This document shows, piece by piece, positions 31,852-61,789 of a stretch of 64,000 bases of DNA. The stretch is from a virus. The stretch's first letter is position 1, and each line of letters opens with the position of its first letter. Location of the stretch: IMG/VR virus record IMGVR_UViG_3300021426_000096; one strand, 5' to 3'. The notes beneath the pieces are model-generated. The model was not told where the DNA came from. It saw only the letters and a program-made list of their open reading frames with translations, and made no database searches. The translations under genes and the position numbers were made by a program.

Positions 31852-31868
31852 GCGATAGCGAAGTGCGA
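31852..31868 (+). repeat. RCGA-triplet intergenic motif (GCGA-ta-GCGA-agt-GCGA)
   Basis: After the 31848 stop. Confidence 0.7.
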
Positions 31869-31902
31869 TGGTCTGAAATTCACTGAAAAAAGTGTAAATA
31901 AA

Positions 31903-31934
31903 TTTGGTAGTCTCATTTTTTTATTGTATCTTTG
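31903..31934 (+). promoter_or_regulatory. Bacteroidetes-type promoter repeat
   Basis: TTTG 31903-31906, TATCTTTG 31927-31934. Confidence 0.6.
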
Positions 31935-35120: not shown

Positions 35121-35137
35121 ACGACTGCGACATACGA
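35121..35137 (+). repeat. RCGA-triplet intergenic motif (ACGA-ct-GCGA-cat-ACGA)
   Basis: After the 35116 stop. Confidence 0.7.
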
Positions 35138-35170
35138 AATCTGAAATCCACTGAAAAAAGTTAAAATAAA

Positions 35171-35202
35171 TTTGGTGGTTTCAGATTTTTGTTGTATCTT
35201 TG
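35171..35202 (+). promoter_or_regulatory. Bacteroidetes-type promoter repeat
   Basis: TTTG 35171-35174, TATCTTTG 35195-35202. Confidence 0.6.
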
Positions 35203-35481: not shown

Positions 35482-35901
35482 ATGAGACACATCAGTACCA
35501 AGACTTCTGCCCGTTCCCCCAGAGCTAACTCCACCTTCAAGACCAGTGAGTCCAGAGAGACTTACAGGATGGTTGAGGAGATTCTTGACATTCTGACCAA
35601 GCAGGGCTTCAATGGGAAGTACCTCTCCACCAAGACCATTGTCAAGAGTGGTACCAGGAGAGGTTATTGCAGACCTTACTATGATGATGAGCGCATTGCT
35701 TGTGCCCACCCCTACTACAAGATCCTGTCAGAGATGACTGACCCTCAGTCTGTCCACTTTGTGAACAATCTGGAAGAGATTGAGACTGACAATGTGCTGC
35801 GCTATCGTCTTCGCACTGATGTGGTGAGGTCTTCCAAGACTGGCAACTGGAAGAGAGTGAGAGGATGTGAGAAGTTTTATGGACTTCCTGACAACAGGTA
35901 G
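35482..35901 (+). CDS. hypothetical basic protein
   Basis: 139-aa ORF; its stop TAG lies inside the first CTGACAACAGG repeat. Confidence 0.5.
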   Translation: MRHISTKTSARSPRANSTFKTSESRETYRMVEEILDILTKQGFNGKYLSTKTIVKSGTRRGYCRPYYDDERIACAHPYYKILSEMTDPQSVHFVNNLEEIETDNVLRYRLRTDVVRSSKTGNWKRVRGCEKFYGLPDNR

Positions 35902-35990
35902 TCTTTGGACAGTCTGACAACAGGTTGTCTATGGGTTGCCTGACAACAGGTTGTCTATGGGTTGCCTGACAACAGGCAACCCACCTCTCC
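35887..35990 (+). repeat. four tandem 26-bp units, each containing the palindrome GACAAC-NN-GTTGTC
   Basis: CTGACAACAGG at 35887, 35913, 35939, 35965; units 2 and 3 identical (CTGACAACAGGTTGTCTATGGGTTGC). Confidence 0.8.
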
Positions 35991-36034
35991 TCCTCCTGAA
36001 ATCCACTGAACAGTAATCTGAAATTCACTGACCT

Positions 36035-36253
36035 ATGACTGAACAGCAGAAAAGACAACTGGATAACCACAACAAGCAGGTGGTTAAGCATGTTATCATT
36101 GCCCTTGTGGAATCCAATATGGCAGACCCCATCAGGCTTTTGACTGACACCGATTATGCATCCCAGATGGTATCCACTTACCTGGAGGCATCCAACATTG
36201 TAAGGGAATCTATGAACCTTCCTCCTTTGGTCATCTATGACATCAAGGATTGA
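36035..36253 (+). CDS. hypothetical protein
   Basis: 72-aa ORF. Confidence 0.45.
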   Translation: MTEQQKRQLDNHNKQVVKHVIIALVESNMADPIRLLTDTDYASQMVSTYLEASNIVRESMNLPPLVIYDIKD

Positions 36254-36269
36254 CGACTGCGATTTGCGG
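36253..36269 (+). repeat. RCGA-triplet intergenic motif (ACGA-ct-GCGA-ttt-GCGG)
   Basis: Overlaps the 36253 stop. Confidence 0.65.
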
Positions 36270-36295
36270 TCAATTGCAAAAAAGTGAAAATAAAT

Positions 36296-36326
36296 TTGGA
36301 TAATTCAGAAAATTGTTGTATCTTTG
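36296..36326 (+). promoter_or_regulatory. Bacteroidetes-type promoter repeat
   Basis: TTTG 36296-36299, TATCTTTG 36319-36326. Confidence 0.6.
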
Positions 36327-36362
36327 TAATGAAGAAAGGAAACAACTAAAAAACCAAAGAAT

Positions 36363-36623
36363 ATGAAACTCATATTTGAAGACAACAACATCTCCTCCTC
36401 CATCAAGGACACTGTAAAGGACATCATTAAGAACTGCAAGGGTGGTGCTCTCCACAAGGGCATCCTGGTTGAGGAACTCTCTGAAGAAGACCTTGACCTC
36501 TATGATGACCCTGAAGGATTCATCCAGAAACATAAGGACACTGATGACATCTATATGGTGTATCAGAGTGTGGCAGGTGCCTGGAACCAACCTTTGACGA
36601 TGGTCGCTGTCGTAGAGTACTGA
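36363..36623 (+). CDS. hypothetical protein
   Basis: 86-aa ORF. Confidence 0.5.
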   Translation: MKLIFEDNNISSSIKDTVKDIIKNCKGGALHKGILVEELSEEDLDLYDDPEGFIQKHKDTDDIYMVYQSVAGAWNQPLTMVAVVEY

Positions 36624-36715
36624 CACAGCAAGACCCCCAGATATGGGCGAAATATCCAAAGCCAGACGAGAGCGGGAAGTGGCATAGTGAGGTGATGAGC
36701 TATTCCTCACATTAT

Positions 36716-36790
36716 GGTCTCATAGTTCAACGGATAGAACAGCAGTTTCCTAAACTGTAGATCTGGGTTCGATTCCCGGTGAGACTACCA
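36716..36790 (+). tRNA. tRNA-Arg (anticodon CCU), CCA encoded
   Basis: Cloverleaf GGTCTCA/TGAGACT acceptor, GTTC-AACGGATA-GAAC D arm, GCAGT-TTCCTAA-ACTGT anticodon arm (CCT), AGAT variable loop, CTGGG-TTCGATT-CCCGG T arm, discriminator A, then CCA. Confidence 0.8.
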
Positions 36791-36810
36791 AGTATTAAAG
36801 AACAGTAATT

Positions 36811-36990
36811 ATGAAATTCTGTAAGATTGCCCTGATTGTTCTCCTGTCCATCAAAAGTCTGAAGATGATTGTTGACACTTTCAATAACCTTGGTGATTCC
36901 GATCATCCCATGGAAGACATCCTCTCCACCCTGATTGTGATCACTGTAGGTTGGAGTCTCTACTATGGAGCAGGTATCCTTGATGTATAA
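36811..36990 (+). CDS. small membrane protein (59 aa)
   Basis: MKFCKIALIVLLSIKSL...LIVITVGWSLYY; below the track cut-off. Confidence 0.3.
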   Translation: MKFCKIALIVLLSIKSLKMIVDTFNNLGDSDHPMEDILSTLIVITVGWSLYYGAGILDV

Positions 36991-37050
36991 TATGAAATTA
37001 ACTGTTCAAAAACATATCTCTGGAATCACAGATTAGTCAAAAAAATAATT

Positions 37051-37428
37051 ATGAAACACAATTTCAAATACACCCTCTCATTGGACACCATCTCCATTAT
37101 GATAACTGGGTCTCCCAGTGATGAACTGGAAAAGCAGGATCAGGATATGGTGGTCAATGCCTTCACTGACATCAAGAATGGAATCATTAAAGAGGTGTCC
37201 AACTTCCTTCATTATGAAGAGACTTGTGATGAACTCATCCTAACTGTACCTACCTCCGCTCTCTATGATGTGACAAAGATTATCATCAACAACATCTCCC
37301 TGGCCAACACTGTCTATATGGATGACATCACATCCATCATACCATTGAGTGACATCAGGGAAAAGCTTGCCGGCACTGAAGTCCTGACAGATCTGGAAGA
37401 ACTCCTCAACTCTGAAGTAGAAGAATAG
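37051..37428 (+). CDS. hypothetical protein
   Basis: 125-aa ORF. Confidence 0.5.
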   Translation: MKHNFKYTLSLDTISIMITGSPSDELEKQDQDMVVNAFTDIKNGIIKEVSNFLHYEETCDELILTVPTSALYDVTKIIINNISLANTVYMDDITSIIPLSDIREKLAGTEVLTDLEELLNSEVEE

Positions 37429-37432
37429 ACAT

Positions 37433-37861
37433 ATGAAACACCTCATCTACATTGCGCTTGCGCTCATCGCACTCCTCTTCATCTCTTGTAGTGTGGATAC
37501 CAATTCACCCACCAAGGTGATGAACCATGACACCGGTATGAAGTTGACTGAAAACCTTGGAGTCTACTCCATCACCGGTCCCAAGGGAGTTCTCGTCCTC
37601 GGTGACATCAAGGAATCCCGTGACCTCCTGTGGCAGATGGAGAAATGCTTTGTTGCCACCAACCTGGAGTCACTCCTCACCATCACCATCAATGGTCAGA
37701 AGTATGAGGTGAAATCTGATGATCAAGGACTCTATATCATCAAGGTGGGACTTGGTGCTGTCAAGCTCCGCCAGTCTGATGTGAATCAGTTCCTCTACTA
37801 CCTGGAATCCAAGATTGCCAAGGATAAGACCAAGAAGATCTGGTCTGTTATCACTGAATAA
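37433..37861 (+). CDS. putative lipoprotein
   Basis: Signal peptide MKHLIYIALALIALLFISC with lipobox Cys. Confidence 0.5.
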   Translation: MKHLIYIALALIALLFISCSVDTNSPTKVMNHDTGMKLTENLGVYSITGPKGVLVLGDIKESRDLLWQMEKCFVATNLESLLTITINGQKYEVKSDDQGLYIIKVGLGAVKLRQSDVNQFLYYLESKIAKDKTKKIWSVITE

Positions 37862-37883
37862 ACCATTAATTAAATTATTTAAT

Positions 37884-38153
37884 ATGAAAAGAATTATCCT
37901 GATTTTTGCTGCACTCTTCTGCATTGTCCTGACTTCCTGCACCAAGCAGCAGGTGACCCGTCAGTTTGGAGGCCAGATGGAAATCAAGCTCCCGGCTGGA
38001 CAGGAACTGATGGAGGTGACCTGGAAAGACAATGACCTGTTCTATCTGACCCGCCCTATGGCCACCGACTACGTCCCTGTTACCAAGATCTTCCAGGAGA
38101 GCTCAGCCTGGGGTGTGATGGAATCCACTGTACTCTTCATTGAAACCCGCTAG
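37884..38153 (+). CDS. putative lipoprotein
   Basis: MKRIILIFAALFCIVLTSC signal plus lipobox; start at the second Met of the track ORF. Confidence 0.45.
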   Translation: MKRIILIFAALFCIVLTSCTKQQVTRQFGGQMEIKLPAGQELMEVTWKDNDLFYLTRPMATDYVPVTKIFQESSAWGVMESTVLFIETR

Positions 38154-38394
38154 TACTATGACAACAATCACTATCTTCATCCTGCCGGCCCTGGCCCTGG
38201 TCATCTACATCCTTCTTCTCCAGTGGATCTCCACTTCACTCAAGACCAGACACTCTGCCTTCTGGTGGATGTTCTTCCTGACCATCCCTCTGGGTGTGAT
38301 CATCACTCTGTTGCTGGACATCAAGGACAACACCTACCCTATGTATGAGGTGGACTCCACTGATGACCCTACCCAATATGACCATCTGCGGTAG
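38140..38394 (+). CDS. small two-TM membrane protein
   Basis: ITIFILPALALVIYILLL and WWMFFLTIPLGVIITLLL. Confidence 0.45.
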   Translation: MKPASTMTTITIFILPALALVIYILLLQWISTSLKTRHSAFWWMFFLTIPLGVIITLLLDIKDNTYPMYEVDSTDDPTQYDHLR

Positions 38395-38423
38395 CGCCAC
38401 CGCCAATTAGACCTATAACCTTT

Positions 38424-38948
38424 ATGAATGCCATTGCAGTCTACCACCATCCCCAAGAATGTGGATCCCCTTACCTCACCTTCATCTCCCAGGAGACAGG
38501 TGAGGTGGTGGAGACTGTTGACATCCCTGATGGGTATTATGACTCTGGACTCAAGACACTGGACATCTATACTCCTGTCTACTCCTTCACAGAACAGGTA
38601 AACCAATCACCCAAACCCACAGTGGACAATGTCAGGCTCAACTGTTCCTTCTACCCTAACCCCAAGAGGTATGTCTTCAAGGTGACCAAGGTGGACAACA
38701 TCAAGTATGACCCTAAGATCATACCCACCTGGACAGCAGATGTGCATGTTGATGCATGTACCCATACCACCAAGTGGCAGTACTCAACCAAGAGAGACTC
38801 ATTCAGAAAGCAGCTCCAGAAAGCAGGATTCAATATGAAACCCTGGACACTGACCAAGAGGATGAAGACTCCCTTTATGGACTTCCTCAAATCTGTTGCC
38901 TCCTCCTATAAAGATTACCATCTGGTCAACCTGATTCAGATTGGATAG
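38424..38948 (+). CDS. hypothetical protein
   Basis: 174-aa ORF followed by a terminator. Confidence 0.5.
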   Translation: MNAIAVYHHPQECGSPYLTFISQETGEVVETVDIPDGYYDSGLKTLDIYTPVYSFTEQVNQSPKPTVDNVRLNCSFYPNPKRYVFKVTKVDNIKYDPKIIPTWTADVHVDACTHTTKWQYSTKRDSFRKQLQKAGFNMKPWTLTKRMKTPFMDFLKSVASSYKDYHLVNLIQIG

Positions 38949-38951
38949 ACT

Positions 38952-38979
38952 CACAGTGATATTACTGTGGGTTTTTTTG
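38952..38979 (+). terminator. rho-independent terminator
   Basis: CACAGTgatattACTGTG followed by GGTTTTTTT. Confidence 0.6.
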
Positions 38980-39036
38980 TTTTGCGGTGGCGACCTGCGG
39001 TTTCTGAAATTCACTGAAAAAAAGTGTAAATAAATT

Positions 39037-39066
39037 TTGTAGATTAAAATCTTTTTTGTATCTTTG
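39037..39066 (+). promoter_or_regulatory. Bacteroidetes-type promoter repeat
   Basis: TTTG 39037-39040, TATCTTTG 39059-39066. Confidence 0.55.
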
Positions 39067-39112
39067 TATCAGAGATAAAGAAAGAAGTTAAACCAATAAA
39101 ATTATAAGTGAT

Positions 39113-39796
39113 ATGAATCCTCAGATGTTTGCTGCCACTGAAAATGAGAAGATTATGTATGTTGTCAATGATGTGCTTGGTGCCACCTCTCCCAAGACAG
39201 CTGTTGACATGAGAACCATTGTTGACAAAGGTATTGACCTTGGTCTGACCCATGATTACCCCAGAGGCAGGCAGGATGGTCATCCCTGGTGGCCTCACAC
39301 TGCTGTGATGATGGGTGTGGGTAGTCCCACTGCTGTGGAGAACTTTGAAGAACCCTACCTCCACAGAAACAAGATGAAGAAAGGGAATACCAGAGTCAGG
39401 ATGTACTACTGGGTTGACAAATCCCACAGACATGAGATGGTAACCAAGGATGCCAAGGCAACCAAGTATGGTGAATCCACTACAAATAAGGTACACATCC
39501 CCAGAGTCAAGGTGTCCACTGACCCTGCTCTTATGACCAAGGTATGTGACTACCTTGACAAGAAAGGATACAAGTATCTCTTTGGTATCCAGGGAAGCAC
39601 CCACATCCTCACTCTCAACCTGTGTGGTGAATACTTCCTTCACATCCCTGTCACCACTGAAACTGCTGACAGAGTACTGGGACTCATCCCTTACTTCTTT
39701 CACAGACCTGATTATGCCAAGGAAGAAATCCCTGGCGCATACATCAAGAAGAACTGGAAGCTCAAGAATATCTGGAACACCTGTACTTCCAAGTAA
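39113..39796 (+). CDS. hypothetical protein, GHPWW family (paralog of 15159..15773)
   Basis: See 15159; the 261-aa antisense ORF 39044..39829 is rejected. Confidence 0.6.
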   Translation: MNPQMFAATENEKIMYVVNDVLGATSPKTAVDMRTIVDKGIDLGLTHDYPRGRQDGHPWWPHTAVMMGVGSPTAVENFEEPYLHRNKMKKGNTRVRMYYWVDKSHRHEMVTKDAKATKYGESTTNKVHIPRVKVSTDPALMTKVCDYLDKKGYKYLFGIQGSTHILTLNLCGEYFLHIPVTTETADRVLGLIPYFFHRPDYAKEEIPGAYIKKNWKLKNIWNTCTSK

Positions 39797-39814
39797 ACCA
39801 AACACCTCCTTACC

Positions 39815-39852
39815 AAGAGACTCTCCCAACCAAGGAGGGTCTCTTCCATTTT
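39815..39852 (+). terminator. stem-loop terminator candidate
   Basis: AAGAGACTCTCCCaaccaaGGAGGGTCTCTT. Confidence 0.4.
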
Positions 39853-40407
39853 AACATGGTTGTCAGCCCGGTGGAGATTCTCCAGCAGCTGGACCTTGGT
39901 CCAGGACCTGATGACCATGGGTCACCAGCATGGGTCACTCCTATCCAACCACTCTCCATCTCCTCTCATCTCATTGCGACCTGCGCCAATCGCATCCAAA
40001 AATTTTTCCATCAGGATGTTTCATCTCCATCAGAGTTCTCATCAGGATAATTATCTCCTCATCTGATTCCACTCTTCACTCTTTTCTATACTATAGTCTT
40101 CTACTTCCAGGAATTCTTCCAGGAAAAGATCTACTTCTGTTAAATTTCCACCCCTGTATATTCATTTTCACCAAAAAACACCCAATTTCATCTTTTTCCC
40201 CAGTACAGATATTCCTGGAAATACTGTATTTCCCCATTTTTAACCAATATGACAAAATGTCAGAAAATCACCTTTTTTGACATTTTTCACAAGATCTGTC
40301 AAAATCACACTTTTCCACTTTTCCCCATTTTTCCAAAAAACCAAAAAATCACCTTTTTTCACTGCGATGGCGATTTTTGCAAAATACCCAATTTTCCCAT
40401 TTTCCCC

Positions 40408-40600
40408 AAAATGCCCATTTTTGGGATATCCTGGATTTTGGCTATTTTGGGGATATCCTGGAAAATGGGGTTTTCCAGAAAATGGCCATTTTTGGGGTTT
40501 TGGAGGATCTTCCAAAAATGGCCAATTTTGGGGTTTTTGGGAAAATGGTCAAAAATGGGGTTTTCTGGGGATACCCCCAAAATGGTGATTTTTGGACGAT
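40408..40600. repeat. degenerate 27-35 bp tandem units carrying CC(A/T)6GG boxes in both orientations
   Basis: CCATTTTTGG (40412, 40482), CCAAAAATGG (40512), CCAATTTTGG (40522), CCAAAATGG (40577); GGGATATCCTGG twice. Confidence 0.7.
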
Positions 40601-40905
40601 CACGATGTGCGACTTCCCCCACACGCACTATATGGAGGGGAGTATCTTACAAACTCCTGGGGAGTCTTTCTATATTTTTTTAATATATATATTTTGATAA
40701 TCCATTTTGTGTAATTTGTAAGTCATTGATTTTCAGTCTATTTCATATAAGTTATTGGTACACAAAGTGGAAGAAAATGGAAGAAAGTGGTAAATATAGT
40801 AAGTGGATGTCAGAAATTAAGGTAGATCACCCAAATTATATGCAAAATACAGACATTGTATGACCACTTTTGTTATATTTGTATATAGAGATATAATAGT
40901 AATAT

Positions 40906-41145
40906 ATGAAGAAGATCAAGATTGGTACATCCTCATTGCATGGGGACATATTGGAAGATTATGATAAGGCAAGAGCTTGTAATTTCTGTACTCACTTTTG
41001 TGGGTATGGGTTGCATGCTTGTTGTGGTCATTGTGATTATAAGGGTGAAGATATAGAGGGAGGATACATTGGTAATTATAGGAAGGTAGGAAAGGATTGT
41101 GAAGGGTTTGATTGTAGGAAAGAATTTCTTGTAGTGGAGGAGTAA
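40906..41145 (+). CDS. Cys-rich small protein
   Basis: CNFCTHFCGYGLHACCGHCDY; start of a lower-GC module with AGG/GGG/ATA-rich codon usage. Confidence 0.45.
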   Translation: MKKIKIGTSSLHGDILEDYDKARACNFCTHFCGYGLHACCGHCDYKGEDIEGGYIGNYRKVGKDCEGFDCRKEFLVVEE

Positions 41146-41324
41146 TATATGTTTAAGAACTGCAAGAACAAGTATGATGCCTGTGACAGGGCGATCACAT
41201 TCATATATGGTAAGGATTATTTGGACAGTCTTGGTGAGGATGAGTATCTTCGTCTTGTAAGGATTGCCAAGTTCTTGTTTGAATCTGGTATGAGATGGCA
41301 GAGAGATAATGGAAAGGAGGAAAT

Positions 41325-41519
41325 ATGATGAGAGATTATGTATTCCCTATTGGGATAGATAAGAATGGTAAGAAGTTCCAATGGGTTGAAGATTGGGATG
41401 TAATTGATTGTAGTGAGTGTTGTTTTTGGGAAGGGAGATGTATGTACAAGGAGCTTAACAACAACAAGAAGGGAGAATGTATAGGAACCGGATATTTCAG
41501 GAGGGTAGTGAGTATATAA
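41325..41519 (+). CDS. Cys-rich small protein
   Basis: DCSECCFWEGRC...GECIG. Confidence 0.4.
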   Translation: MMRDYVFPIGIDKNGKKFQWVEDWDVIDCSECCFWEGRCMYKELNNNKKGECIGTGYFRRVVSI

Positions 41520-41715
41520 GATAATAGTAATATATGGAAAAGGCATTAGAGTATCTTAACAGTCATATGATTGTGAAACATAGGAGGGAGACTGAATCTT
41601 CATCCATTGCTGACAGGTATAATTATGTTGAGTGGGATGAGTATTATGTAAGTAAGGAGGATGCTATCAAGGCGATTGAGATTGCATTGAGTGATATAAA
41701 ATAATAATTGGGTAT

Positions 41716-42228
41716 ATGTGTTTGTTTAGAAAGAAGGAAAAGAACAATCTTCCTATTGGGAAACTGGCTTTTTTTGATGGTAATAATGATTATGAGTTTG
41801 TTGATCTTGGGTTGAGTGTGAAATGGGCCAATAAGAATATTGGTTCAGAATATGAGGACAAGATTGGTACTTATTTCAATTATGATGAAGCGGAAGACAG
41901 GTATTATGATCTGCCCACTGTTGATGAGGTGAGGGAGTTGTTTGAGAAATGTAAGATCAAGTATGACAAGAAGAGGAATGGGTTCATTGTTGTTGGGGTG
42001 AATGGGAATAGGATATTCATTCCTGTGAGTGGAGAGAGGGATGGTAATGCCAGGTATGAAGGAGGATACTTCTGGACTAATAGTGATCATGAGGAAGGAT
42101 ATATGGAGGGGTATAAGTATTATGGTTGTGTCTATTTGAAGAGTAAGGTTCTGAAGAAGGTCAAGACAGAAGTGAATCTGTTGAAAAAGGATGGGTTCTG
42201 GATCAATGTGAGGGAAGTGGAAAGATAA
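41716..42228 (+). CDS. FISUMP / DUF1566-like (Fibrobacter succinogenes major paralogous) domain protein
   Basis: FVDLGLSVKWANKNIG...LPTVDEVRELFE...NGFIVVGVNGNRIFIPVSG.RDGNARYEGGYFWTNSD.EEGY...GCVYL follows the domain layout seen at the C-terminus of the 2153-aa protein (GWRLPTKDEWDYI...). Confidence 0.5.
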   Translation: MCLFRKKEKNNLPIGKLAFFDGNNDYEFVDLGLSVKWANKNIGSEYEDKIGTYFNYDEAEDRYYDLPTVDEVRELFEKCKIKYDKKRNGFIVVGVNGNRIFIPVSGERDGNARYEGGYFWTNSDHEEGYMEGYKYYGCVYLKSKVLKKVKTEVNLLKKDGFWINVREVER

Positions 42229-42246
42229 TAAAAAAATTAAATAATT

Positions 42247-42483
42247 ATGGAAATAGTTTCAACAACACCTCCAAGGAAAACCAAGGAAAAGAAGTATATG
42301 TTTGTGTGTAAAACTTGCCAAAAGGAAGAAAACGGATTTAATTACAGTAAGACCAAGTTCATTGCCGATTATCCAAAAGATTTCTTTACTGGTATCACAC
42401 TGGAATATTGTAAATGTCCTCTATGTGGAGCATTACATTCAAAATCTATTATAGCAAGACTCCGCTACCTGTTATATAAATAA
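42247..42483 (+). CDS. zinc-ribbon small protein
   Basis: CKTCQ...CKCPLCG. Confidence 0.45.
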   Translation: MEIVSTTPPRKTKEKKYMFVCKTCQKEENGFNYSKTKFIADYPKDFFTGITLEYCKCPLCGALHSKSIIARLRYLLYK

Positions 42484-42495
42484 GGAGGTTTAAAG

Positions 42496-42981
42496 ATGAA
42501 GAAGTTATTATTTATTTTCTGTTTATTGTTTTGTCTGTCTTGTAAGTGCCAGGTGGTGTCATCATCCATTGGTGATATTACCGACATTATGCTGTTGGAT
42601 CCTGTATGTGATGATGAGGAATTGGTTGGAGATCATTATATATGGGGTTATGTTGTCATTGACAGTACTGCATGTAATAAAGATATGAGTAATGGGATAA
42701 GCAGTATCATCAACAATCCTGATTATATATACTCATTGGATGAAGACACTGTATGTTATTGTGAGTTTTTGCCTGACATCTGTATAAGGTGTGAGAATGC
42801 GGATATTTTTATTGAGTTCAGTACATACAGTATATTATACAAGTTCTGTGATGGGAGTGAGGCTGATGATTATTATTTGAATATTGAGGGATACAGTAGA
42901 TTATTGGATTATTGTATTGAACTGTTTCCTGGAGATGATATATTGAAGGAGTACAAGAAAAAGTTGGAAAATATAAAATAA
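42496..42981 (+). CDS. putative lipoprotein
   Basis: MKKLLFIFCLLFCLSCKC signal plus lipobox. Confidence 0.5.
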   Translation: MKKLLFIFCLLFCLSCKCQVVSSSIGDITDIMLLDPVCDDEELVGDHYIWGYVVIDSTACNKDMSNGISSIINNPDYIYSLDEDTVCYCEFLPDICIRCENADIFIEFSTYSILYKFCDGSEADDYYLNIEGYSRLLDYCIELFPGDDILKEYKKKLENIK

Positions 42982-43373
42982 ATCATTATATTTGTAATAG
43001 GTATAATTGACAGATGTCTTGTTTGATCGTTGCTAAATACCGGGATGAAGTTGCCTGGGGTCGAGACTAACAGTAGAGGTGTTCACTGCTTTGGGGATGA
43101 TAACCAACTACCCTGTTACACAAGAGCTGAGACAAGGCGCTCTTATAGACAAAAGGATGTACGCAAAAGCAGATATGATACATCTGTCATTTTTTTAATA
43201 AGTTATAAATATGATTTGGATTTTGATAATTTTTATGTTGTATTCTCTGATTGGTGCATTGGTTTGTAACAAGATTAATGCATTATATGGGAGTGATGAT
43301 ATTGTTGAATTGATTGTTGATAGTATACTGATAGTCTTCTGGCCTATCACTGTAATGTGTCATTTTTTATTGG

Positions 43374-43856
43374 ATGATTAATATGATTAGTGAAAAGGAA
43401 AAGAGAAGATTGTTATTGATGGATCTTGGCATGCGCTTGGGTTATGGTGTAATGATATTGGATATACCTGCCAAGCGTGATGGCAAGATATTCATTTTAA
43501 GTACATTGGATGATTATCAGTATGACACTGATGAGGATTCTCATTATCAGAGTGTTTATAACATCCTGCCTTATCTCAGACCTATGGAGAGTATGACTAA
43601 AGAGGAGGCATCCGAGATGTTCAGACTGATGTATACTGACAGGAATCTAATCAGTGTGGATATTGAAAAGGATGGCATGAGGTTTGGTTATACCAAAGAT
43701 GGTGTATTCTGTCATGTGTTTCTTTTATTCAATGAGATTTACTCATTGAAGCAGTTGGATTGGTATAACAAGAAGATGTTTGATTACAGGGGTTTGATCC
43801 CTATGGGGATTGCCCTGGAAGCAAAAGAAGGAATGTATAATATAAAGGAGAAATAA
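43374..43856 (+). CDS. hypothetical protein
   Basis: 160-aa ORF. Confidence 0.5.
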   Translation: MINMISEKEKRRLLLMDLGMRLGYGVMILDIPAKRDGKIFILSTLDDYQYDTDEDSHYQSVYNILPYLRPMESMTKEEASEMFRLMYTDRNLISVDIEKDGMRFGYTKDGVFCHVFLLFNEIYSLKQLDWYNKKMFDYRGLIPMGIALEAKEGMYNIKEK

Positions 43857-43858
43857 TT

Positions 43859-44059
43859 ATGACACAAGAAGTACAGATACAAGTATTGGAGGATGTCATT
43901 AAGGTGCTTACCAATTCAGACACAATTGATGAAGCCCTTGATAAATCCTTACAAATCATAAGAGAAGAAAAAGAAAAGGTATATCAAGAGGAAATTCCAT
44001 ACTCTGCTTATGAAAGATTAGAGGTATATGTTGAAAATCTTAAAAAAGACTTAAAATGA
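43859..44059 (+). CDS. hypothetical protein
   Basis: 66-aa ORF. Confidence 0.4.
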   Translation: MTQEVQIQVLEDVIKVLTNSDTIDEALDKSLQIIREEKEKVYQEEIPYSAYERLEVYVENLKKDLK

Positions 44060-44538
44060 TCGCAGAAGATTTCGTTAGTTTAGAGACTGCCAAACTCCTG
44101 AGAGAGAAGGGGTTTAAGAAGTGGTGTTATAAATGTTATGGTACTGCTGTATATCATAAAGGAGTACCCATCAGTTTTGATGAGGAATGTGAACTGAAAG
44201 ATGAAGGACATGGAGATGAAATTGAATATGTTGAAGGTGGGCATCTTTATGATTTCGGGTGTAATAACAGTGAAAAGGAAACAAATTTATGGGCTGCACC
44301 AACACTATGGGTGGCAATGAAGTGGATAATGGAGAAAGGGTTTTACATCTTTGTCCCCCTGGAAATTGATTATGATGAGGATGAGAGAGGAACTAAGTGG
44401 TATCATAATGCTACATATTATCCTGAAATAAGAAGGGTCTCTGACGGAAAGATAATGTATGATGATGGCAGACTTTATGCAAAACCAGAACAAGCATATG
44501 AAGTGGCGATAAGGTATTGTCTTGAAAATCTGATTTAG
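44056..44538 (+). CDS. hypothetical protein
   Basis: 160-aa ORF; ATGA overlap. Confidence 0.5.
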   Translation: MIAEDFVSLETAKLLREKGFKKWCYKCYGTAVYHKGVPISFDEECELKDEGHGDEIEYVEGGHLYDFGCNNSEKETNLWAAPTLWVAMKWIMEKGFYIFVPLEIDYDEDERGTKWYHNATYYPEIRRVSDGKIMYDDGRLYAKPEQAYEVAIRYCLENLI

Positions 44539-44650
44539 TTATGAGTGAGGAAGAAAAACAGCTGCTGCTTAAAGACCTTTGTGGAAGATATCCATATGTG
44601 GCTTACCCTATAAGCAAAGGAAGGAATGTATAACAAATAAGTACTAAAAT

Positions 44651-45157
44651 ATGAAAAAAGAAATAGAAATACCGGAAGGTTATGAGGCCAGAATTGAAGG
44701 GAACAAGGTTGTAATTGAACCAAAGGAAAGTGAGGATGAGAGGATAAGGAAGATGCTCATTGAGCAAATGAAGAGATGGAAAAAATGTGCAGAGGATAAT
44801 AATGTTGAACAAGATGTCAAAGATGCTACTGATGCTATAGCCTACCTTGAAAAACATAAAGAACAGAATCTGGTAGAGTGGAGTGAGGAAGATGAGAAAA
44901 AATTAAAGACTGTCATATCTTTAATGAAGTCAAGCCGTGCGGTGGATCCGTTTTATGATAAGATGTACCTTGAAGGTTGGCTCAAATTACTTCCAGAAAG
45001 GTTTAATTCACAGTATCATTGGAAACCTAGTGAGTATCAGATGAAAGCTCTGAAAGATGTGATTGACAGAGTACTTTTGACTTGCAGACAACAGGTCCCA
45101 TTAGAATCACTCTACAATGACTTAAATAAACTATTTGAGAATGAAAATACAATATAA
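44651..45157 (+). CDS. hypothetical protein
   Basis: 168-aa ORF. Confidence 0.5.
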   Translation: MKKEIEIPEGYEARIEGNKVVIEPKESEDERIRKMLIEQMKRWKKCAEDNNVEQDVKDATDAIAYLEKHKEQNLVEWSEEDEKKLKTVISLMKSSRAVDPFYDKMYLEGWLKLLPERFNSQYHWKPSEYQMKALKDVIDRVLLTCRQQVPLESLYNDLNKLFENENTI

Positions 45158-59223: not shown

Positions 59224-59397
59224 TGGGACTCTATTTTAAATGTCACAAATGTGGTAAATATTTCATTGACCAGCAGGGTGAAAATGAAATTGATTATGAA
59301 AAAGGACTGTATAGATGTCCTGAATGTGATACAACACTTTCAGTAGATTCTGATAGTGTTGAATATGATTATGACTTGTTCAATAAGAAATAATTTT
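59224..59397 (+). CDS. zinc-ribbon small protein (57 aa)
   Basis: CHKCG...CPECD; below the track cut-off. Confidence 0.3.
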
Positions 59398-59426
59398 GGA
59401 ATTATCAGAAAAAGCAATTATATTTG
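59395..59426 (+). promoter_or_regulatory. Bacteroidetes-type promoter (variant -7 TATATTTG)
   Basis: TTTG 59395-59398, TATATTTG 59419-59426. Confidence 0.55.
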
Positions 59427-59433
59427 TAGTACT

Positions 59434-60096
59434 ATGAAGACATACAAAGAATATTACCAGATTGGATTGAGTCATCACCTTGATTGGAAATCAAAACAGG
59501 ATGAAGAGTGGTGGAAAAATAAGAATGATTTTGGTTACCTTGAATTAAAAGGTGATTTTATTGAGACTGTCAAGTTCCTCTCCATTGATGAGAAGAATGA
59601 TGCATCACTGTTCATCAACACAACCAATGTGAAGAACAGTGAGTGGGGCATACTTTTTTCCATGCTTGGTCAGGCACTTGTTGACTGGTGTGTGGAGAAT
59701 GTAAGTTGGAAAAACCTCTGGTCTATACATTTTCAAATAAAAAGGTCTATTGATGAGAATGGTATGAATTTCTATGTTCCTACCATCTCTGTGGAAAATT
59801 TCAAGATAGAAAAGAACGGAAAGTTCAAATGGAAAAAGTCTGAAAAAGAAACCAATGAGAGGAAACTCAAGAAGTTTGAGGAATGTAATGATTTCCTTTG
59901 CAAACTTGTTGTGGAGTTCATTGAGAGTCATGGAGTTGATATTCCCAATGACTGGAATGATTTTAGTTTTGGACTTGACTCACTCTGTGAAAGTTGTAAG
60001 TGGGGCGAGTGGGTTTGTGCATCTGATGGTTATATGAATCTTGGTAACTACAATGTAGAAGAAGGGGAGTATGACCAGTTTGTAGAATGTATGTAA
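59434..60096 (+). CDS. hypothetical protein
   Basis: Start MKTYKEYYQ after the promoter. Confidence 0.5.
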   Translation: MKTYKEYYQIGLSHHLDWKSKQDEEWWKNKNDFGYLELKGDFIETVKFLSIDEKNDASLFINTTNVKNSEWGILFSMLGQALVDWCVENVSWKNLWSIHFQIKRSIDENGMNFYVPTISVENFKIEKNGKFKWKKSEKETNERKLKKFEECNDFLCKLVVEFIESHGVDIPNDWNDFSFGLDSLCESCKWGEWVCASDGYMNLGNYNVEEGEYDQFVECM

Positions 60097-60097
60097 T

Positions 60098-60409
60098 ATG
60101 GGAATGACATATACATATAGTACTGGAAAGATTGAAAGAGATTTTGTCCTGAAGAAGGTAGATGGTAATTGTAATGTGGACAAAGAACACAACAAACCCA
60201 TTGGTGTGATGTGCCAGACATGTCCACACTTCATCAAGATGGAGACCTTCTATCATTCTCCAAAAGACCAATACATCCTGAATCTTGATTCTTATGGTAC
60301 ATTTGTGTTCTGCAAATACTATAAGGAGGATGATGAGGGTACACAAGATGTACTCTATAAACTGTATAATGATTTCAAGCATGAAGCATTGTGTCACTTT
60401 GATGATTAA
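60098..60409 (+). CDS. Cys-containing hypothetical protein
   Basis: 103-aa ORF; CQTCPHF. Confidence 0.45.
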   Translation: MGMTYTYSTGKIERDFVLKKVDGNCNVDKEHNKPIGVMCQTCPHFIKMETFYHSPKDQYILNLDSYGTFVFCKYYKEDDEGTQDVLYKLYNDFKHEALCHFDD

Positions 60410-60414
60410 GTAAT

Positions 60415-60930
60415 ATGCCAGAAGAATTAGAACAAGCAAAACAAGAATATCTTGATAAGTACAAGATATATAAAGATAAGTATATCAACTGGTTAAAGGA
60501 ATCAAAAGGTACAATATTTAAAATAAATGTACCTCCTTCTTTTCATATGTGTGATGGTTTTGAAGGTGATAGTGGTACAACATACTATGGTGGATATTGT
60601 AAAATAATTGGAGAAAATGATGGTAATCCAATTTTAAGACATATGCATATGGATTTTGTTGTACATCAAAACCTACGATTCCCAGATCAAAAGATGTTGA
60701 ATTATGCAAGATATTATGTGAACATCCATAACTTCACAGGATATACATATGAATCTCTTATTGATGTTATTGACAGACCTGCTAACAAATCAGAATTGAT
60801 TCCATTCATAAAAGATATTATGGATGATGATTATGAATTAAGAGGTTATATGGTTGATTCAAAAGATATAGAAAACAATACACCTCCTTGGTGGAAAAAC
60901 CATTCAAAGGATGAAAAATATATAGGGTAA
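60415..60930 (+). CDS. hypothetical protein
   Basis: 171-aa ORF. Confidence 0.5.
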   Translation: MPEELEQAKQEYLDKYKIYKDKYINWLKESKGTIFKINVPPSFHMCDGFEGDSGTTYYGGYCKIIGENDGNPILRHMHMDFVVHQNLRFPDQKMLNYARYYVNIHNFTGYTYESLIDVIDRPANKSELIPFIKDIMDDDYELRGYMVDSKDIENNTPPWWKNHSKDEKYIG

Positions 60931-60931
60931 T

Positions 60932-61561: not shown

Positions 61562-61712
61562 TATGAAACTCATAGAACTGAAAGTCAGGATTAGAGTACC
61601 TGATGATTATGAATGTGATTATCCATTTGATACTCTGATTGATGCCAATCACAGAGATGATATGGAAATATATGATGTTGAAAAGATTGATGAGTATGAT
61701 GATTAAAGAAAA

Positions 61713-61740
61713 TGGTAGGTAATTTTACCTACCATTTTTT
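61713..61740 (+). terminator. rho-independent terminator
   Basis: GGTAGGTAAtttTACCTACC followed by ATTTTTT. Confidence 0.6.
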
Positions 61741-61768
61741 GGAATTATCAAAAAAATTCATTATCTTT
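61737..61768 (+). promoter_or_regulatory. Bacteroidetes-type promoter repeat
   Basis: TTTG 61737-61740, TATCTTTG 61761-61768. Confidence 0.6.
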
Positions 61769-61789
61769 GTAATGTAAAAAGAAACAACT

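What the first reader, a model, noticed from the sequence alone, without database searches (positions are those of the whole stretch)
39797..40905. 1.1-kb gene-free, repeat-dense, strand-asymmetric region: candidate replication origin / module junction
In an otherwise tightly packed genome this stretch has no credible ORF and no promoter cassette. It runs from a GC-rich palindrome cluster (CTGGACCttGGTCCAG, TGACCATGGGTCA; 39880-39950) to a 450-bp polypyrimidine plus-strand tract with short direct repeats (TCATCAGGA x2, CTTCCAGGA x2) and the palindrome GGAAATA-ctg-TATTTCC (40216-40232). It then turns abruptly G+T-rich with an array of CC(W)6GG boxes. The purine/pyrimidine skew flips at about 40.4 kb, and three RCGA motifs are embedded. 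Iterons, an AT-rich unwinding element and a skew switch are the usual signature of a replication origin. Alternatively this could be a pac site or a recombination junction.
Basis: partly seen in the sequence, partly recalled or inferred. Interest (0 to 1): 0.65.

Follow-up and report, generated by a model that had tools for sequence, protein, structure and literature searches.

The report
Phage non-coding nine-base repeat locus
The gene-free stretch is real: it is a conserved, non-coding, protein-binding-type DNA control locus of a family of uncultured rumen-type phages, built around about 50 strictly phased nine-base repeats and a near-invariant 100-base core. It could be a replication origin, but the evidence does not show that it is one.

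Summary
Window 39797-40905 is the largest gene-free gap in the 64 kb, and its repeats far exceed chance: CC(W)6GG occurs 4 times against 0.04 expected.

Tools added three things.
- Positions 40167-40612 keep a strict 9.0-bp register of about 50 units, consensus CCAAAAATG in either orientation. This is unique in the window.
- The whole module recurs in about 11 further phage lineages from metagenomes, with fixed geometry: three CGA/CpG clusters, the array, a weak promoter, a near-invariant core (Box A, three RTGGAA at 10-bp spacing, GTGGATGTC), lineage-specific GATC tandem repeats, and then a C-poor small-gene cluster.
- The core is 95-97% identical in contigs whose flanks are unrelated, so this is a true module junction.

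No frame stays open across lineages. There is no Rfam match and no compensatory base-pair change.

The skew flip is conserved but local (about 1 kb on the left, 3-5 kb on the right). The AT-rich patch is not conserved, and no replication gene lies nearby. The origin reading therefore stays possible but unproven (about 0.35). Its rivals are an early-transcription control site, a genome-end, packaging or injection-stop region like the T5 iss, and a non-coding RNA.

I found no description of a 9-bp array of this kind.

The parts
39113..39796 (+). Left flanking gene (227 aa, unknown function). It marks the left boundary of the module.
   Evidence: Real gene with 16 homologues at 34-96% identity. 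No Pfam or PHROG family. AlphaFold2 pLDDT 77 with no significant PDB fold match. In L035, L044 and L029 an unrelated gene takes its place.
39815..39852 (+). Terminator-like hairpin: 12-bp stem, 7-nt loop, then TTTT. It ends the upstream transcription unit.
   Evidence: RNA fold -20.5 kcal/mol, z -3.9, with no shuffle folding as well. Equivalent hairpins follow the gene in L010 and L020.
39856..39945 (.). GC-rich cluster of short palindromes (CTGGACCTTGGTCCAG, GGTCCAGGACC, TGACCATGGGTCA). Its length varies between lineages.
   Evidence: About 90-140 bp here, about 450-500 bp in L009 and L020, absent in L010. GGWCCWGGWCC occurs in 9 of 13 lineages. No conserved ORF.
39976..39994 (+). CpG cluster 1 (GCGACCTGCGCCAATCGCA), a variant of the genome's intergenic triple-CGA motif.
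   Evidence: Its position relative to Box A varies between lineages, from -905 to -690.
39940..40230 (+). Pyrimidine-rich, C-skewed spacer with short direct repeats and the GGAAATA-ctg-TATTTCC palindrome.
   Evidence: The stretch measured, 39940-40400, is 63% C+T, the window maximum. GC skew reaches -0.54. The strongly negative skew from -1000 to -500 is conserved in the lineages compared, -0.17 to -0.45.
40167..40612 (.). Array of about 50 units in a strict 9.0-bp register. Each unit is about 5 A/T then about 4 G/C, with consensus CCAAAAATG(G) in either orientation.
   Evidence: Register shown. Power 58.7 against a window median of 3.6. The same 8.8-9.1-bp array, 315-460 bp long, occurs in 13 of 13 lineages. 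It occurs in nearly every locus that holds Box A and in none of the others; L004 lacks Box A because its contig ends first. Unit consensus and orientation split of about 70:30. C-type versus G-type units differ between the close relatives window and L034.
40250..40301 (.). TGACA/TGTCA dyads around AAAATCACC-TTTTTTGACA. A second AAAATCACC copy lies 81 bp (9x9) downstream at 40345-40364.
   Evidence: (family D3). Conserved in 9 lineages. The same 80-81-bp spacing occurs in L020 and L035.
40360..40381 (+). CpG cluster 2 (CACTGCGATGGCGATTTTTGCA), the left bracket of the core array.
   Evidence: Lies at -361 to -316 relative to Box A in 11 of 13 lineages. Sequences.
40383..40596 (.). Core array of CCAAAAATGG-type dyads, including the four CC(W)6GG boxes and GGATATCC/GGATC palindromes. 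In this lineage the units are mostly G-type.
   Evidence: The distance between clusters 2 and 3 is about 215-235 bp in all lineages.
40597..40628 (+). CpG cluster 3: a perfect triple-CGA motif (CGATCACGATGTGCGA) plus CACACGCAC.
   Evidence: Lies at -131 to -96 relative to Box A in 13 of 13 lineages.
40647..40678 (+). P1, a weak Bacteroidota-type promoter-like site (TTAC/TTTG, about 21-23 nt including the invariant AACTCCT, then TATATTTT). It contains the small hairpin ACTCCTGGGGAGT (40653-40665).
   Evidence: Alignment. TTTG is present in 8 of 13 lineages and TAnnTTT[TC] in about 9 of 13. It begins 34 nt after the triple-CGA motif, as the standard cassettes do. The hairpin is not conserved. 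AACTCC..TATAT is unique in the window.
40666..40716 (.). AT-rich patch (40-bp minimum of 10% GC).
   Evidence: GC is 20% or less in 8 of 13 lineages but 30-35% in L035, L009 and L020, so it is not a conserved feature.
40719..40747 (+). Box A, TAAGTCATTGATTTTCAGTCTATTTCATA: three TCA-centred 10-bp units. It holds the only minus-strand copy of the recurrent intergenic element CTGAAATTCACTGA.
   Evidence: Single copy in the window. Near-invariant in 17 metagenome loci plus L009, L010 and L020. Cassette element: 11 plus-strand copies and this single minus-strand copy.
40766..40817 (+). Three RTGGAA(G)AAA repeats at 10-bp spacing (40767, 40777, 40787), then GTGGATGTCAGAAAT (40803-40817).
   Evidence: Offsets of 45-47, +10, +10 and +16 from Box A are invariant across lineages. 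Unique in the window. No compensatory change supports RNA pairing with Box A.
40825..40843 (+). GATC-containing unit (GATCACCCAAATTATATGC). There is one copy here; relatives carry 1-4 tandem copies of lineage-specific 21-45-bp repeats at this place.
   Evidence: (L035 family D2: 4 copies at spacings 21, 23, 48). Sequence diverges here between otherwise identical backbones.
40874..40881 (+). P2: a canonical Bacteroidota -7 box, TATATTTG, lying inside the conserved motif TTGTTATATTTG and 32 nt before the first gene.
   Evidence: The only TAnnTTTG in the region on either strand. L035 has a full cassette promoter at the equivalent place.
40906..45157 (+). Right flank: a cluster of 12 small genes whose sense strand holds 8-11% C. 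It marks the right boundary, and its gene content is swapped between lineages.
   Evidence: G-rich right flank in all lineages with sequence there. No Pfam family above threshold.

Best explanation
**What it is.** The stretch is a single-copy, non-coding, multipartite cis-acting DNA locus. It is read by DNA-binding proteins, not as RNA or protein.

**Proposed mechanism (inferred).**
- A sequence-specific protein polymerises on the roughly 50 units of CCAAAAATG, one unit per 9 bp and in either orientation. Nine bp is shorter than the helical repeat of about 10.5 bp, so successive sites rotate by about -51 degrees. The protein coat, or the intrinsic path of the DNA, would therefore be a left-handed helix of about 63 bp per turn, not a planar bend.
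- The array is bracketed by the genome's CGA motif.
- The array is followed by a near-invariant core of helically phased short repeats: three TCA units, three RTGGAA units and GTGGATGTC. A second, conserved factor would assemble there.
- Immediately to the right lie lineage-specific GATC-containing tandem repeats, an AT/TA-rich segment, and the promoter of a swappable C-poor gene cluster.

**Most likely function.** I think this assembly marks the phage's replication origin, or one of its origins, coupled to control of the adjacent early-type promoter. The conserved core would be the backbone part, and the variable repeats would be the specificity part that is matched to a protein encoded downstream.

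**Shown:** the anatomy, its conservation, its single-copy status, its non-coding nature, and the mosaic flanks.
**Inferred:** protein binding, the identity of the binding proteins, and the replication function.
For: - Strict 9.0-bp register, unique in the window. It is present in all 13 lineages and strictly coupled to Box A.
- The unit has a sequence consensus and occurs in both orientations. Orientation flips between close relatives. That fits dyad-tolerant protein sites and does not fit RNA or coding sequence.
- Spacing within the core is invariant: 45-47, +10, +10, +16.
- The core is 95-97% identical where the flanks are unrelated, and 69-75% identical between lineages whose flanking protein is about 60% identical.
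- The core motifs are single-copy in 64 kb.
- Lineage-specific tandem repeats of 21-45 bp with GATC lie next to the core. They co-vary with the downstream genes, the layout of an iteron replicon.
- A negative-to-positive GC-skew switch at the core is conserved in all lineages.
- An AT-rich 40-bp segment of 10-28% GC lies right of the core in every lineage with sequence there.
- The array is more self-complementary than shuffles (z -1.8 to -7).
Against: - The skew switch is local, not replichore-scale. Part of it is simply the composition of the repeat units.
- The AT-rich patch left of Box A is not conserved.
- No recognisable initiator, helicase, primase or polymerase gene lies in the window, in the 10 kb fetched to its left, or in relatives' loci.
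- The window itself has only one GATC unit, not an iteron array.
- GTGGATGTC matches the DnaA box at only 6-7 of 9 positions, with the same mismatches in every lineage.
- The phase of the array relative to Box A is not conserved.
- A promoter-like site (P1) and a true -7 box (P2) flank the core. All the features could therefore serve transcription alone.
Confidence: 0.35

Rival explanations
1. The locus is only a transcription control region. The array would be an upstream architectural or silencing platform, a nucleoid-protein-like coat. The core repeats would be activator or repressor sites that time expression of the C-poor gene cluster from P1 and P2. The variable tandem repeats would be operators for a regulator encoded in the swappable cluster.
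For: - The locus sits between a terminator and the first gene of a cluster that lacks the genome's standard promoter cassette. All 16 cassettes are elsewhere.
- The cluster has bare -7 boxes at 40874 and 42987.
- P1 lies at the canonical distance after a triple-CGA motif.
- Box A contains an inverted copy of the element found upstream of 11 ordinary promoters.
- Helically phased direct repeats upstream of a promoter are typical activator sites.
- A phage sigma factor is encoded at 12275-13165.
Against: - A 30-bp near-invariant box and a 450-bp array are far more than known promoters need.
- The core motifs are single-copy, so they do not define a promoter class.
- In L035 the first gene has its own full cassette promoter about 300 bp beyond the core. 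The core is therefore not needed as its promoter.
- P1 lacks the consensus G and has non-optimal spacing in all lineages.
Confidence: 0.3
2. The locus is the genome-end region of a linear virion DNA: a direct terminal repeat, a packaging recognition site, or an injection-stop site as in T5. The C-poor small genes would then be the first DNA to enter the cell.
For: - The layout is: end of a long rightward transcription unit, then 1.1-1.6 kb of repeat-dense non-coding DNA, then small genes of unknown function. This matches the concatemer junction of phages that package with direct terminal repeats.
- It also matches the large untranslated iss region next to the T5 pre-early genes (10.1101/866236).
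- crAss001, which shares an SPFH gene at 46% identity, packages with a 576-bp direct terminal repeat (PMC6235969).
- The locus is a single-copy conserved site with variable flanks.
- Many metagenome contigs end 40-530 bp to the right of Box A.
Against: - Contig ends are spread over about 500 bp and coincide with the point where strains diverge. They therefore look like assembly-graph breaks.
- Several contigs, including the 96-kb one, run straight through the region.
- No terminase gene lies within 64 kb, although phages with direct terminal repeats do not require one nearby.
- No true DnaA boxes are present, unlike the T5 iss.
- Read-level data were not available.
Confidence: 0.18
3. The region encodes one or more long non-coding RNAs. 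One example would be a transcript running from the left, or from P1, through the array or the leader, as reported for long intergenic regions of the crAss-like phage phi14:2.
For: - phi14:2 has two long intergenic regions near early genes that are transcribed above the level of most genes (10.1101/2020.03.07.982082).
- The array is self-complementary.
- RNAalifold pairs Box A with the RTGGAA repeats on the plus strand only, at -7 kcal/mol.
- The triple-CGA motif, otherwise found just after stop codons, hints at plus-strand transcripts.
Against: - No Rfam family matches at the gathering threshold. At relaxed thresholds only chance hairpin matches appear.
- None of the 16 predicted pairs shows a compensatory change, and 5 are invariant G-U pairs.
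- Unit orientation (C-type versus G-type) flips between close relatives, which would rewrite any RNA.
- The small hairpin with a T-run at 40653-40685 is not conserved.
Confidence: 0.08
4. The array is a partition (centromere-like) site for a plasmid-like carrier state. It would be bound by a ribbon-helix-helix-type protein, as with the omega heptads or parC.
For: Arrays of short units in direct and inverted orientation are the hallmark of such centromeres, and this array has units in both orientations.
Against: - No ParA, ParM or TubZ-like gene lies next to it, and no Pfam hit appears in the flanking genes.
- Fifty units is far more than known centromeres carry.
- No relatives were found in bacterial genomes or MAG contigs, as plasmids or otherwise.
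Confidence: 0.04

Closest known systems
Injection stop signal (iss) region of phage T5 and relatives
   Same: Both are large untranslated regions of about 1-2 kb, dense in repeats and palindromes. Both have a conserved architecture across a phage group and lie next to a cluster of small early genes (10.1101/866236).
   Different: The T5 iss is defined by 8 DnaA boxes in a fixed arrangement and lies inside the terminal repeat. Here there are no true DnaA boxes and the position relative to the genome ends is unknown. The dominant feature is a 9-bp array that T5 lacks.
Iteron-type replication origins (lambda ori, P1 oriR, pSC101-type plasmids)
   Same: Both have a conserved host-factor or bent-DNA part, next to tandem direct repeats of about 20 bp whose sequence varies with the neighbouring gene set. 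Both carry GATC sites and an AT-rich segment and are single-copy. The comparison with these origins rests on my own knowledge.
   Different: No recognisable initiator gene lies nearby. The window has only one copy of the about-20-bp unit. The large array has 9-bp units, and there is no replichore-scale skew.
phi29 protein p6 nucleoprotein complex at genome ends
   Same: Both are long stretches read through a periodic signal by a multimerising phage architectural protein that controls both the origin and early promoters (PMC3100819). That the p6 signal is periodic is my own knowledge.
   Different: The p6 signal has a 12/24-bp periodicity, is largely independent of sequence, and gives a right-handed wrap (own knowledge). 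Here the period is 9.0 bp with a clear sequence consensus. No p6 homologue was identified.
Arrays of short repeats bound by ribbon-helix-helix proteins (omega heptads of pSM19035, parC of R1, parH of TP228)
   Same: Both consist of head-to-tail short units that work in direct or inverted orientation, forming a protein filament on DNA (own knowledge; orientation data).
   Different: Those arrays have 4-10 units of 7-11 bp and lie next to their par or regulatory operon. Here there are about 50 units of 9 bp and no such genes.
Intrinsically curved A-tract DNA upstream of phage and bacterial promoters or in origins
   Same: Both have regularly spaced A/T tracts of 4-6 bp: 36 tracts in 470 bp here.
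   Different: Curved DNA needs phasing of about 10-11 bp. Here the only spectral peak is at 9.0 bp, with none at 10-11. The predicted shape is a corkscrew, not a planar bend (inference).
Long transcribed intergenic regions of crAss-like phage phi14:2
   Same: Both are long non-coding regions beside early genes in a phage of Bacteroidota.
   Different: No sequence or architectural similarity could be tested, and transcription here is unknown. The comparative pattern argues against an RNA function.

Membership tests
Iteron-type replication origin | Tandem direct repeats of about 17-22 bp (iterons), 3 or more copies | tested here: inconclusive
   The window has a single GATC unit (40825-40843). 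Relatives have 2-4 lineage-specific tandem copies of 21-45 bp at the same place.
Iteron-type replication origin | Adjacent AT-rich DNA unwinding element | tested here: inconclusive
   The patch has 10% GC at 40666-40716 here but 30-35% GC in L035, L009 and L020. A second AT-rich 40-mer (10-28% GC) lies right of the core in all lineages, but it overlaps promoter sequence.
Iteron-type replication origin | Cognate initiator gene in cis or nearby | tested here: not met
   No replication-protein family was found in the flanking genes or anywhere in the window, the 10 kb fetched to its left, or relatives' loci. Proteins of unknown function remain candidates.
Iteron-type replication origin | Supports autonomous or phage-dependent replication; copy-number peak | not testable with these tools
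   This needs read depth from infected cells or a plasmid assay.
Skew-defined bidirectional origin | Global minimum of cumulative GC skew with replichore-scale asymmetry | tested here: not met
   Within 64 kb there is only a local dip (3.98 to 3.58) on a curve rising from 0 to 5.8. In relatives the skew is about 0 beyond 1.5 kb to the left. The full genome was not available.
DnaA-box cluster (oriC-like, or T5 iss) | Several TTATCCACA boxes with 1 mismatch or fewer | tested here: not met
   The best candidates, xGTGGATGT and RTGGAAGAA, match 6-7 of 9 positions, with the same mismatches in every lineage.
Intrinsically bent A-tract DNA | A/T tracts phased at 10-11 bp | tested here: not met
   There is a single peak at 9.0 bp and no peak at 10-11 bp.
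Terminal repeat, pac or cos region | Read termini or a two-fold coverage step; identical sequence at both contig ends | not testable with these tools
   No reads were available. Contigs cross the region, and contig ends scatter over about 500 bp at the point where strains diverge.
Terminal repeat, pac or cos region | Neighbouring terminase genes (pac/cos types) | tested here: not met
   No terminase family was found in the window.
Structured non-coding RNA (any Rfam family, including ROOL/GOLLD) | Match to a covariance model, or compensatory base-pair changes | tested here: not met
   The only Rfam match is the tRNA at 36716; in the region there are only chance hairpin matches far below threshold. 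None of 16 predicted pairs shows a compensatory change.
Protein-coding gene | A reading frame kept open across relatives | tested here: not met
   No frame is open in all lineages, and in three lineages all six frames carry stops. Stops are scarce only because of the composition. The GC-rich part has no conserved ORF.
Bacteroidota sigma-A promoter (-33 TTTG, -7 TAnnTTTG) | Both elements at a spacing of about 19-21 nt | tested here: inconclusive
   The pattern search finds 16 full cassettes in the window, none of them in the region. P2 has a perfect -7 box but no -33 element. P1 has TTTG in 8 of 13 lineages, a spacing of 22-24 nt, and a -7 box that lacks the final G.
Partition centromere (type Ib/II) | Short-repeat array next to genes for a partition NTPase and a centromere-binding protein | tested here: not met
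   The array is present. No ParA, ParM or TubZ family was found in the neighbouring genes.

The most novel reading that the evidence does not exclude
The 9-bp array would be the loading track for a so far unknown DNA-coating protein. That protein would polymerise with a 9-bp step into a left-handed filament of about 63 bp per turn over about 450 bp. Bracketed by the CGA motifs, the filament would act as a physical gate at the head of the first-expressed gene cluster. The gate could pause DNA entry, or license replication and early transcription. This would be a new kind of phage cis element, functionally parallel to the T5 iss or the phi29 p6 sites but built on a different structural principle.
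Probability: 0.2. Interest if true: 0.75.

Novelty: new variant of a known kind. Interest (0 to 1): 0.55.

Why it matters
Large uncultured phages of rumen and gut Bacteroidota have no mapped origins, packaging sites or early-control regions. This locus is a sharply defined, single-copy, deeply conserved cis element that could anchor such mapping.

- **A search tag.** The 27-nt Box A pattern retrieves family members from metagenomes.
- **A recombination boundary.** The locus marks where early-gene cassettes are exchanged.
- **A testable target.** The 9-bp consensus units give a clean substrate for protein pull-down or DAP-seq.
- **An unusual structure.** A strict 9.0-bp register held over 450 bp in every lineage, while the unit sequence and orientation drift, is structurally unusual. 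My literature searches found no description of it. If a dedicated coating protein exists, it would be a new DNA-recognition mode.

Tried and rejected
- **DNA similarity to cultured phages:** none.
- **IMG/VR:** searching with the flanking protein found nothing. Searching with a 19-mer gave 9 loci that proved to be chance or unrelated matches.
- **GTDB genomes:** nothing by DNA pattern or by protein.
- **crAss001:** its largest gap in the 50-100 kb stretch examined is a tRNA cluster, not an analogue. Apart from the SPFH gene, and a PHROG-level phosphoheptose isomerase match, no membership of Crassvirales could be shown.
- **Coding hypotheses:**
  - The 144-aa and 64-aa ORFs called by pipelines are not conserved.
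  - The apparent 'GPGPD' peptide comes from the DNA palindrome GGWCCWGGWCC, because the variable positions are the W positions of that palindrome.
- **RNA hypotheses:** Rfam finds nothing, and RNAalifold gives a structure with no covariation.
- **P1-like pac site with Dam sites:** GATC is not enriched in the window region (5 against 3.2 expected). It is enriched right of the core in relatives.
- **DnaA boxes:** rejected.
- **Planar A-tract curvature:** rejected, because the period is 9 bp, not 10-11.
- **Giant hairpin or cruciform as the conserved feature:** self-complementarity is present but varies (z -1.8 to -7), and the arrangement of the halves is not conserved.
- **Flanking 227-aa protein as the binding protein:** the structure prediction gave no informative fold match.
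- **MADS/CArG link:** the only hint is a sub-threshold K-box match (E 0.006), which I judged to be chance.
- **Walking the 96-kb contig:** one step to the left yielded only more accessory genes, so I stopped.
Full report
**Context**

The window is part of a large phage-like genome. It holds long runs of small plus-strand genes. These include a sigma factor (12275-13165), a Thg1-like enzyme, a D12 Dam-type methyltransferase and an SPFH protein. The SPFH protein is 46% identical to gp91 of crAss001. Also present are one tRNA-Arg, an Acb3-like protein, and two giant minus-strand genes with GH2 and BspA-LRR domains.

No replication or virion gene family was found in the 64 kb or among the genes called in the 10 kb fetched to the left. 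The genome is therefore larger than the 96-kb contig that carries it.

The host is probably a member of Bacteroidota. Sixteen copies of the promoter pattern TTTG-N17-23-TAnnTTTG occur, all on the plus strand, against 2.5 expected. There is no DNA match to cultured phages. No relatives were found in IMG/VR or in GTDB genomes.

**The observation**

It is correct in nearly every detail.
- 39797-40905 is the largest gap in the gene map.
- The named palindromes and direct repeats are at the stated places.
- CC(W)6GG occurs 4 times here out of 6 in the window, against 0.04 expected. AAAATGG and CCATTTT are similarly concentrated.
- GC skew swings from -0.54 to +0.30 across 40.2-40.5 kb.
- The ten CpGs fall into three clusters, in a genome whose CpG observed/expected ratio is 0.21.

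Four corrections apply.
- The tract is 63% pyrimidine, not a true polypyrimidine run.
- TCATCAGGA occurs once; the repeated word is CATCAGGAT.
- A perfect -7 promoter box lies at 40874.
- Gene callers did place ORFs of 64 and 144 aa here, but these ORFs are not conserved.

From 40167 to 40612 the sequence keeps a strict 9.0-bp register of about five A/T followed by about four G/C. Written in rows of nine, the columns line up for about 50 units without an indel. The spectral power at 9.0 bp is 58.7 for a 450-bp window. The window median is 3.6, and the next unrelated value is 8.5.

Thirty-six A/T tracts of 4 or more bases give a single peak at 9.0 bp and none at 10-11 bp. This is therefore not classical planar A-tract curvature. 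By geometry (inference), a 9-bp repeat on a helix of about 10.5 bp turns each successive site by about -51 degrees. That gives a left-handed corkscrew of about 63 bp per turn.

**Relatives**

The flanking 227-aa protein has homologues at 34-96% identity. Their contigs L009, L010 and L020 carry a homologous non-coding region. A 27-nt pattern from the most conserved block retrieved 17 more metagenome loci. In total there are about 11 distinct lineages besides the window.

All lineages share the same order and geometry.
- A terminator-like hairpin follows the left gene. In the window it folds at -20.5 kcal/mol with z -3.9.
- Next comes a GC-rich cluster of short palindromes of very variable length, including GGWCCWGGWCC.
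- Next comes a C-skewed spacer.
- The 9-bp array follows. Its period is 8.8-9.1 bp and its length 315-460 bp in 13 of 13 lineages.
- The array contains TGTCA...AAAATCACC...TGACA dyads and two AAAATCACC copies 81 bp apart.
- CpG clusters lie at fixed offsets from Box A: -361 to -316 in 11 of 13 lineages and -131 to -96 in 13 of 13.
- A weak promoter-like site, P1, contains the invariant AACTCCT.
- Box A follows.
- Three RTGGAA repeats sit at 10-bp spacing, then GTGGATGTC 16 bp further on. These offsets are invariant.
- One to four lineage-specific tandem repeats of 21-45 bp follow, each containing GATC.
- A TA-rich promoter segment leads into a G-rich, C-poor gene cluster.

The array is strictly coupled to Box A. 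Loci carrying Box A with the flank present have power 33-85, and every other locus, including 50 kb of crAss001, stays below 9.

**Nature of the element**

It is not protein-coding.
- Stop codons are scarce in all six frames simply because of the composition.
- No frame is open in all lineages, and in three lineages all six frames carry stops.
- The apparent 'GPGPD' peptide in the GC-rich part is explained by a DNA palindrome whose W positions vary.

It is unlikely to act as a structured RNA.
- There is no Rfam family at the gathering threshold, and only chance hairpin matches below it.
- The only consensus structure pairs Box A with the RTGGAA repeats. None of its 16 pairs shows a compensatory change, and several are invariant G-U pairs.
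- The array units switch between C-type (CCCCAAAA) and G-type (TTTTGGGG) even between the close relatives window and L034.

The unit has a real sequence consensus, CCAAAAATG(G). It is used in both orientations at about 70:30, in all 12 lineages examined. Orientation-tolerant, register-strict short units are what arrays of protein-binding sites look like. The arrays are also more self-complementary than shuffled controls (z -1.8 to -7).

The phase of the array relative to Box A is not conserved. The array and the core therefore seem to act without rigid stereochemical coupling.

**Relation to the rest of the genome**

Ordinary intergenic spaces in this genome carry a long cassette.
- Within 4-13 nt of a stop codon lies a triple-CGA motif, CGANNRCGANNNRCGA, with 15 intergenic copies.
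- Next comes CTGAAATTCACTGA, with 11 plus-strand copies.
- Next comes the promoter TTTGG-N20-TATCTTTG.

The region re-uses these parts in an unusual arrangement.
- Three CGA clusters bracket the spacer and the array.
- P1 starts 34 nt after the third cluster, as ordinary promoters do.
- Box A contains the only minus-strand copy of the CTGAAATTCACTGA element.
- The core motifs are unique in the window.

**Module junction**

Within the group L035, L031, L036 and L040:
- The core from -90 to +105 is 95-97% identical.
- The array is 84-90% identical.
- The GC-rich part is 65-73% identical.
- Both outer flanks fall to the 52-58% seen between unrelated sequences.

The left gene is either the 227-aa family or an unrelated one. 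The genes and tandem repeats on the right differ. This also explains why so many contigs end 40-530 bp right of Box A: the assembly graph branches there.

**Is it an origin?**

For:
- The locus is a single-copy conserved cis element.
- It has helically phased repeats.
- Lineage-specific repeats of about 20-45 bp with GATC lie adjacent to a conserved core and co-vary with the downstream genes. This is the logic of iteron replicons.
- AT-rich segments are present.
- A negative-to-positive skew switch is conserved in all lineages.

Against:
- The skew switch spans only about 1 kb of non-coding DNA on the left and the C-poor cluster on the right. Further left the skew is about 0. In the window it is only a small dip on a rising cumulative curve.
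- Part of the 40.4-kb flip is just the orientation of the repeat units.
- The AT-rich patch before Box A is not conserved.
- GTGGATGTC is not a DnaA box.
- No recognisable replication gene is near.

The same anatomy fits two other readings. One is an early-transcription control region: terminator, array, P1, operator-like core, P2. The other is a genome-end or injection-stop region like the T5 iss, in a phage packaged with direct terminal repeats as crAss001 is.

I rank them as follows:

| Reading | Confidence |
|---|---|
| Origin coupled to early control | about 0.35 |
| Transcription control only | about 0.30 |
| Genome end, packaging or injection stop | about 0.18 |
| Non-coding RNA | about 0.08 |
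| Partition site | about 0.04 |

The better-supported general statement is that this is a protein-bound, cis-acting DNA locus. I would put that at about 0.75.

**Comparison with known systems**

The closest analogues in function are the following.
- The T5 iss: a large untranslated, repeat-dense region, conserved and next to pre-early genes.
- Iteron origins.
- The phi29 p6 nucleation regions.
- Arrays of short repeats bound by ribbon-helix-helix proteins (own knowledge).

The locus fails the defining tests of each family that could be run. It has no DnaA boxes, no 10-11-bp phasing, no neighbouring initiator or partition genes, and no Rfam model. Two literature searches for arrays with a 9-bp period or nonamer repeats in phages returned nothing relevant. 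I therefore class it as a new variant of a known kind, namely large cis-acting repeat regions of phages. The unusual structural element is the 9.0-bp register conserved over about 450 bp.

**Limits**

- No reads, no full genome and no expression data were available.
- The lineages come from a few rumen-type metagenome projects.
- Promoter assignments rest on consensus matching.
- The structural statement about a corkscrew is geometric inference.
- The flanking 227-aa protein gave no functional clue.

Noticed in passing
window 3535-39017 and 59395-61769 (for example 35122-35202, 31853-31934, 38985-39066): A long intergenic cassette recurs on the plus strand. It starts 4-13 nt after a stop codon with a triple-CGA motif, CGANNRCGANNNRCGA (15 intergenic copies). 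CTGAAATTCACTGA follows (11 copies), then a TTTGG-N20-TATCTTTG promoter (16 copies). The genome's CpG observed/expected ratio is 0.21. The cassette may act as a mobile regulatory cassette that promotes gene shuffling, like the T4 PeSL elements (own knowledge).
   Followed up: partly
window 40906-45157: The sense strand of this cluster of 12 small genes holds only 8-11% C at all three codon positions, against 15-25% in other genes. GC skew reaches +0.65. The property is conserved in relatives. The cluster has only bare -7 boxes (40874, 42987), and several of its small products are Cys-rich. The cause is unknown: it could be selection on the RNA or DNA, R-loop formation, or single-strand exposure.
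   Followed up: partly
window 36000-39796: Plus-strand genes with standard promoter cassettes nevertheless have negative GC skew (-0.05 to -0.14) and higher GC content (0.46-0.47) than the rest of the window (about 0.40). This suggests a compositionally distinct block just left of the locus.
   Followed up: no
window 39856-39945; L009 10040-10480; L020 4060-4580: This part is variable in length and GC-rich. It is packed with short restriction-site-like palindromes (GGWCCWGGWCC, CCWGG, TGATCA, CAGCTG, AGATCT) in a genome that otherwise avoids CpG. L009 and L020 have many GATC/TGATCA copies here, and the window has none.
   Followed up: partly
window 39113-39796: This 227-aa protein family has a strongly conserved N-terminal half (YPRGxxDGHPWWPHT...EEPYLHR...YWVD). 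It has no Pfam or PHROG family and no PDB fold match (pLDDT 77). Shorter paralogues of about 190 aa share only the N-terminal half.
   Followed up: yes
window 35880-36035: Tandem copies of CTGACAACAGGTTGTCTATGGGTTGC (three copies, about 27-nt period) lie inside or just after the ORF 35482-35901. Two CTGAAATYCACTGA elements follow, upstream of a promoter cassette and near the tRNA-Arg gene (36716-36790).
   Followed up: no
window 43859-44059: The 66-aa product has a sub-threshold Pfam match to the K-box of MADS-box factors (E 0.006, 17 bits against a cut-off of 30). This is curious given the CArG-like CC(W)6GG boxes, but it is most likely a chance coiled-coil match.
   Followed up: no
L015 587-650; L019 7478-7570: The 19-mer TAAGTCATTGATTTTCAGT also occurs in unrelated IMG/VR phage contigs, inside intergenic hairpin or repeat contexts. 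In L019 it occurs twice next to GCGGACTG hairpins. About 2 chance matches were expected and 9 were found, so some may reflect a shared short motif of phages that infect Bacteroidota.
   Followed up: partly
L009 10087-10318; L010 3765-3790; L020 4030-4055; L044 951-966: In several relatives a second copy of the right half of Box A ((A)CTTCAGTCTATTTC) lies near the left edge of the non-coding region. The module is thus bracketed by direct repeats 650-1200 bp apart. No clear copy was seen in the window.
   Followed up: no
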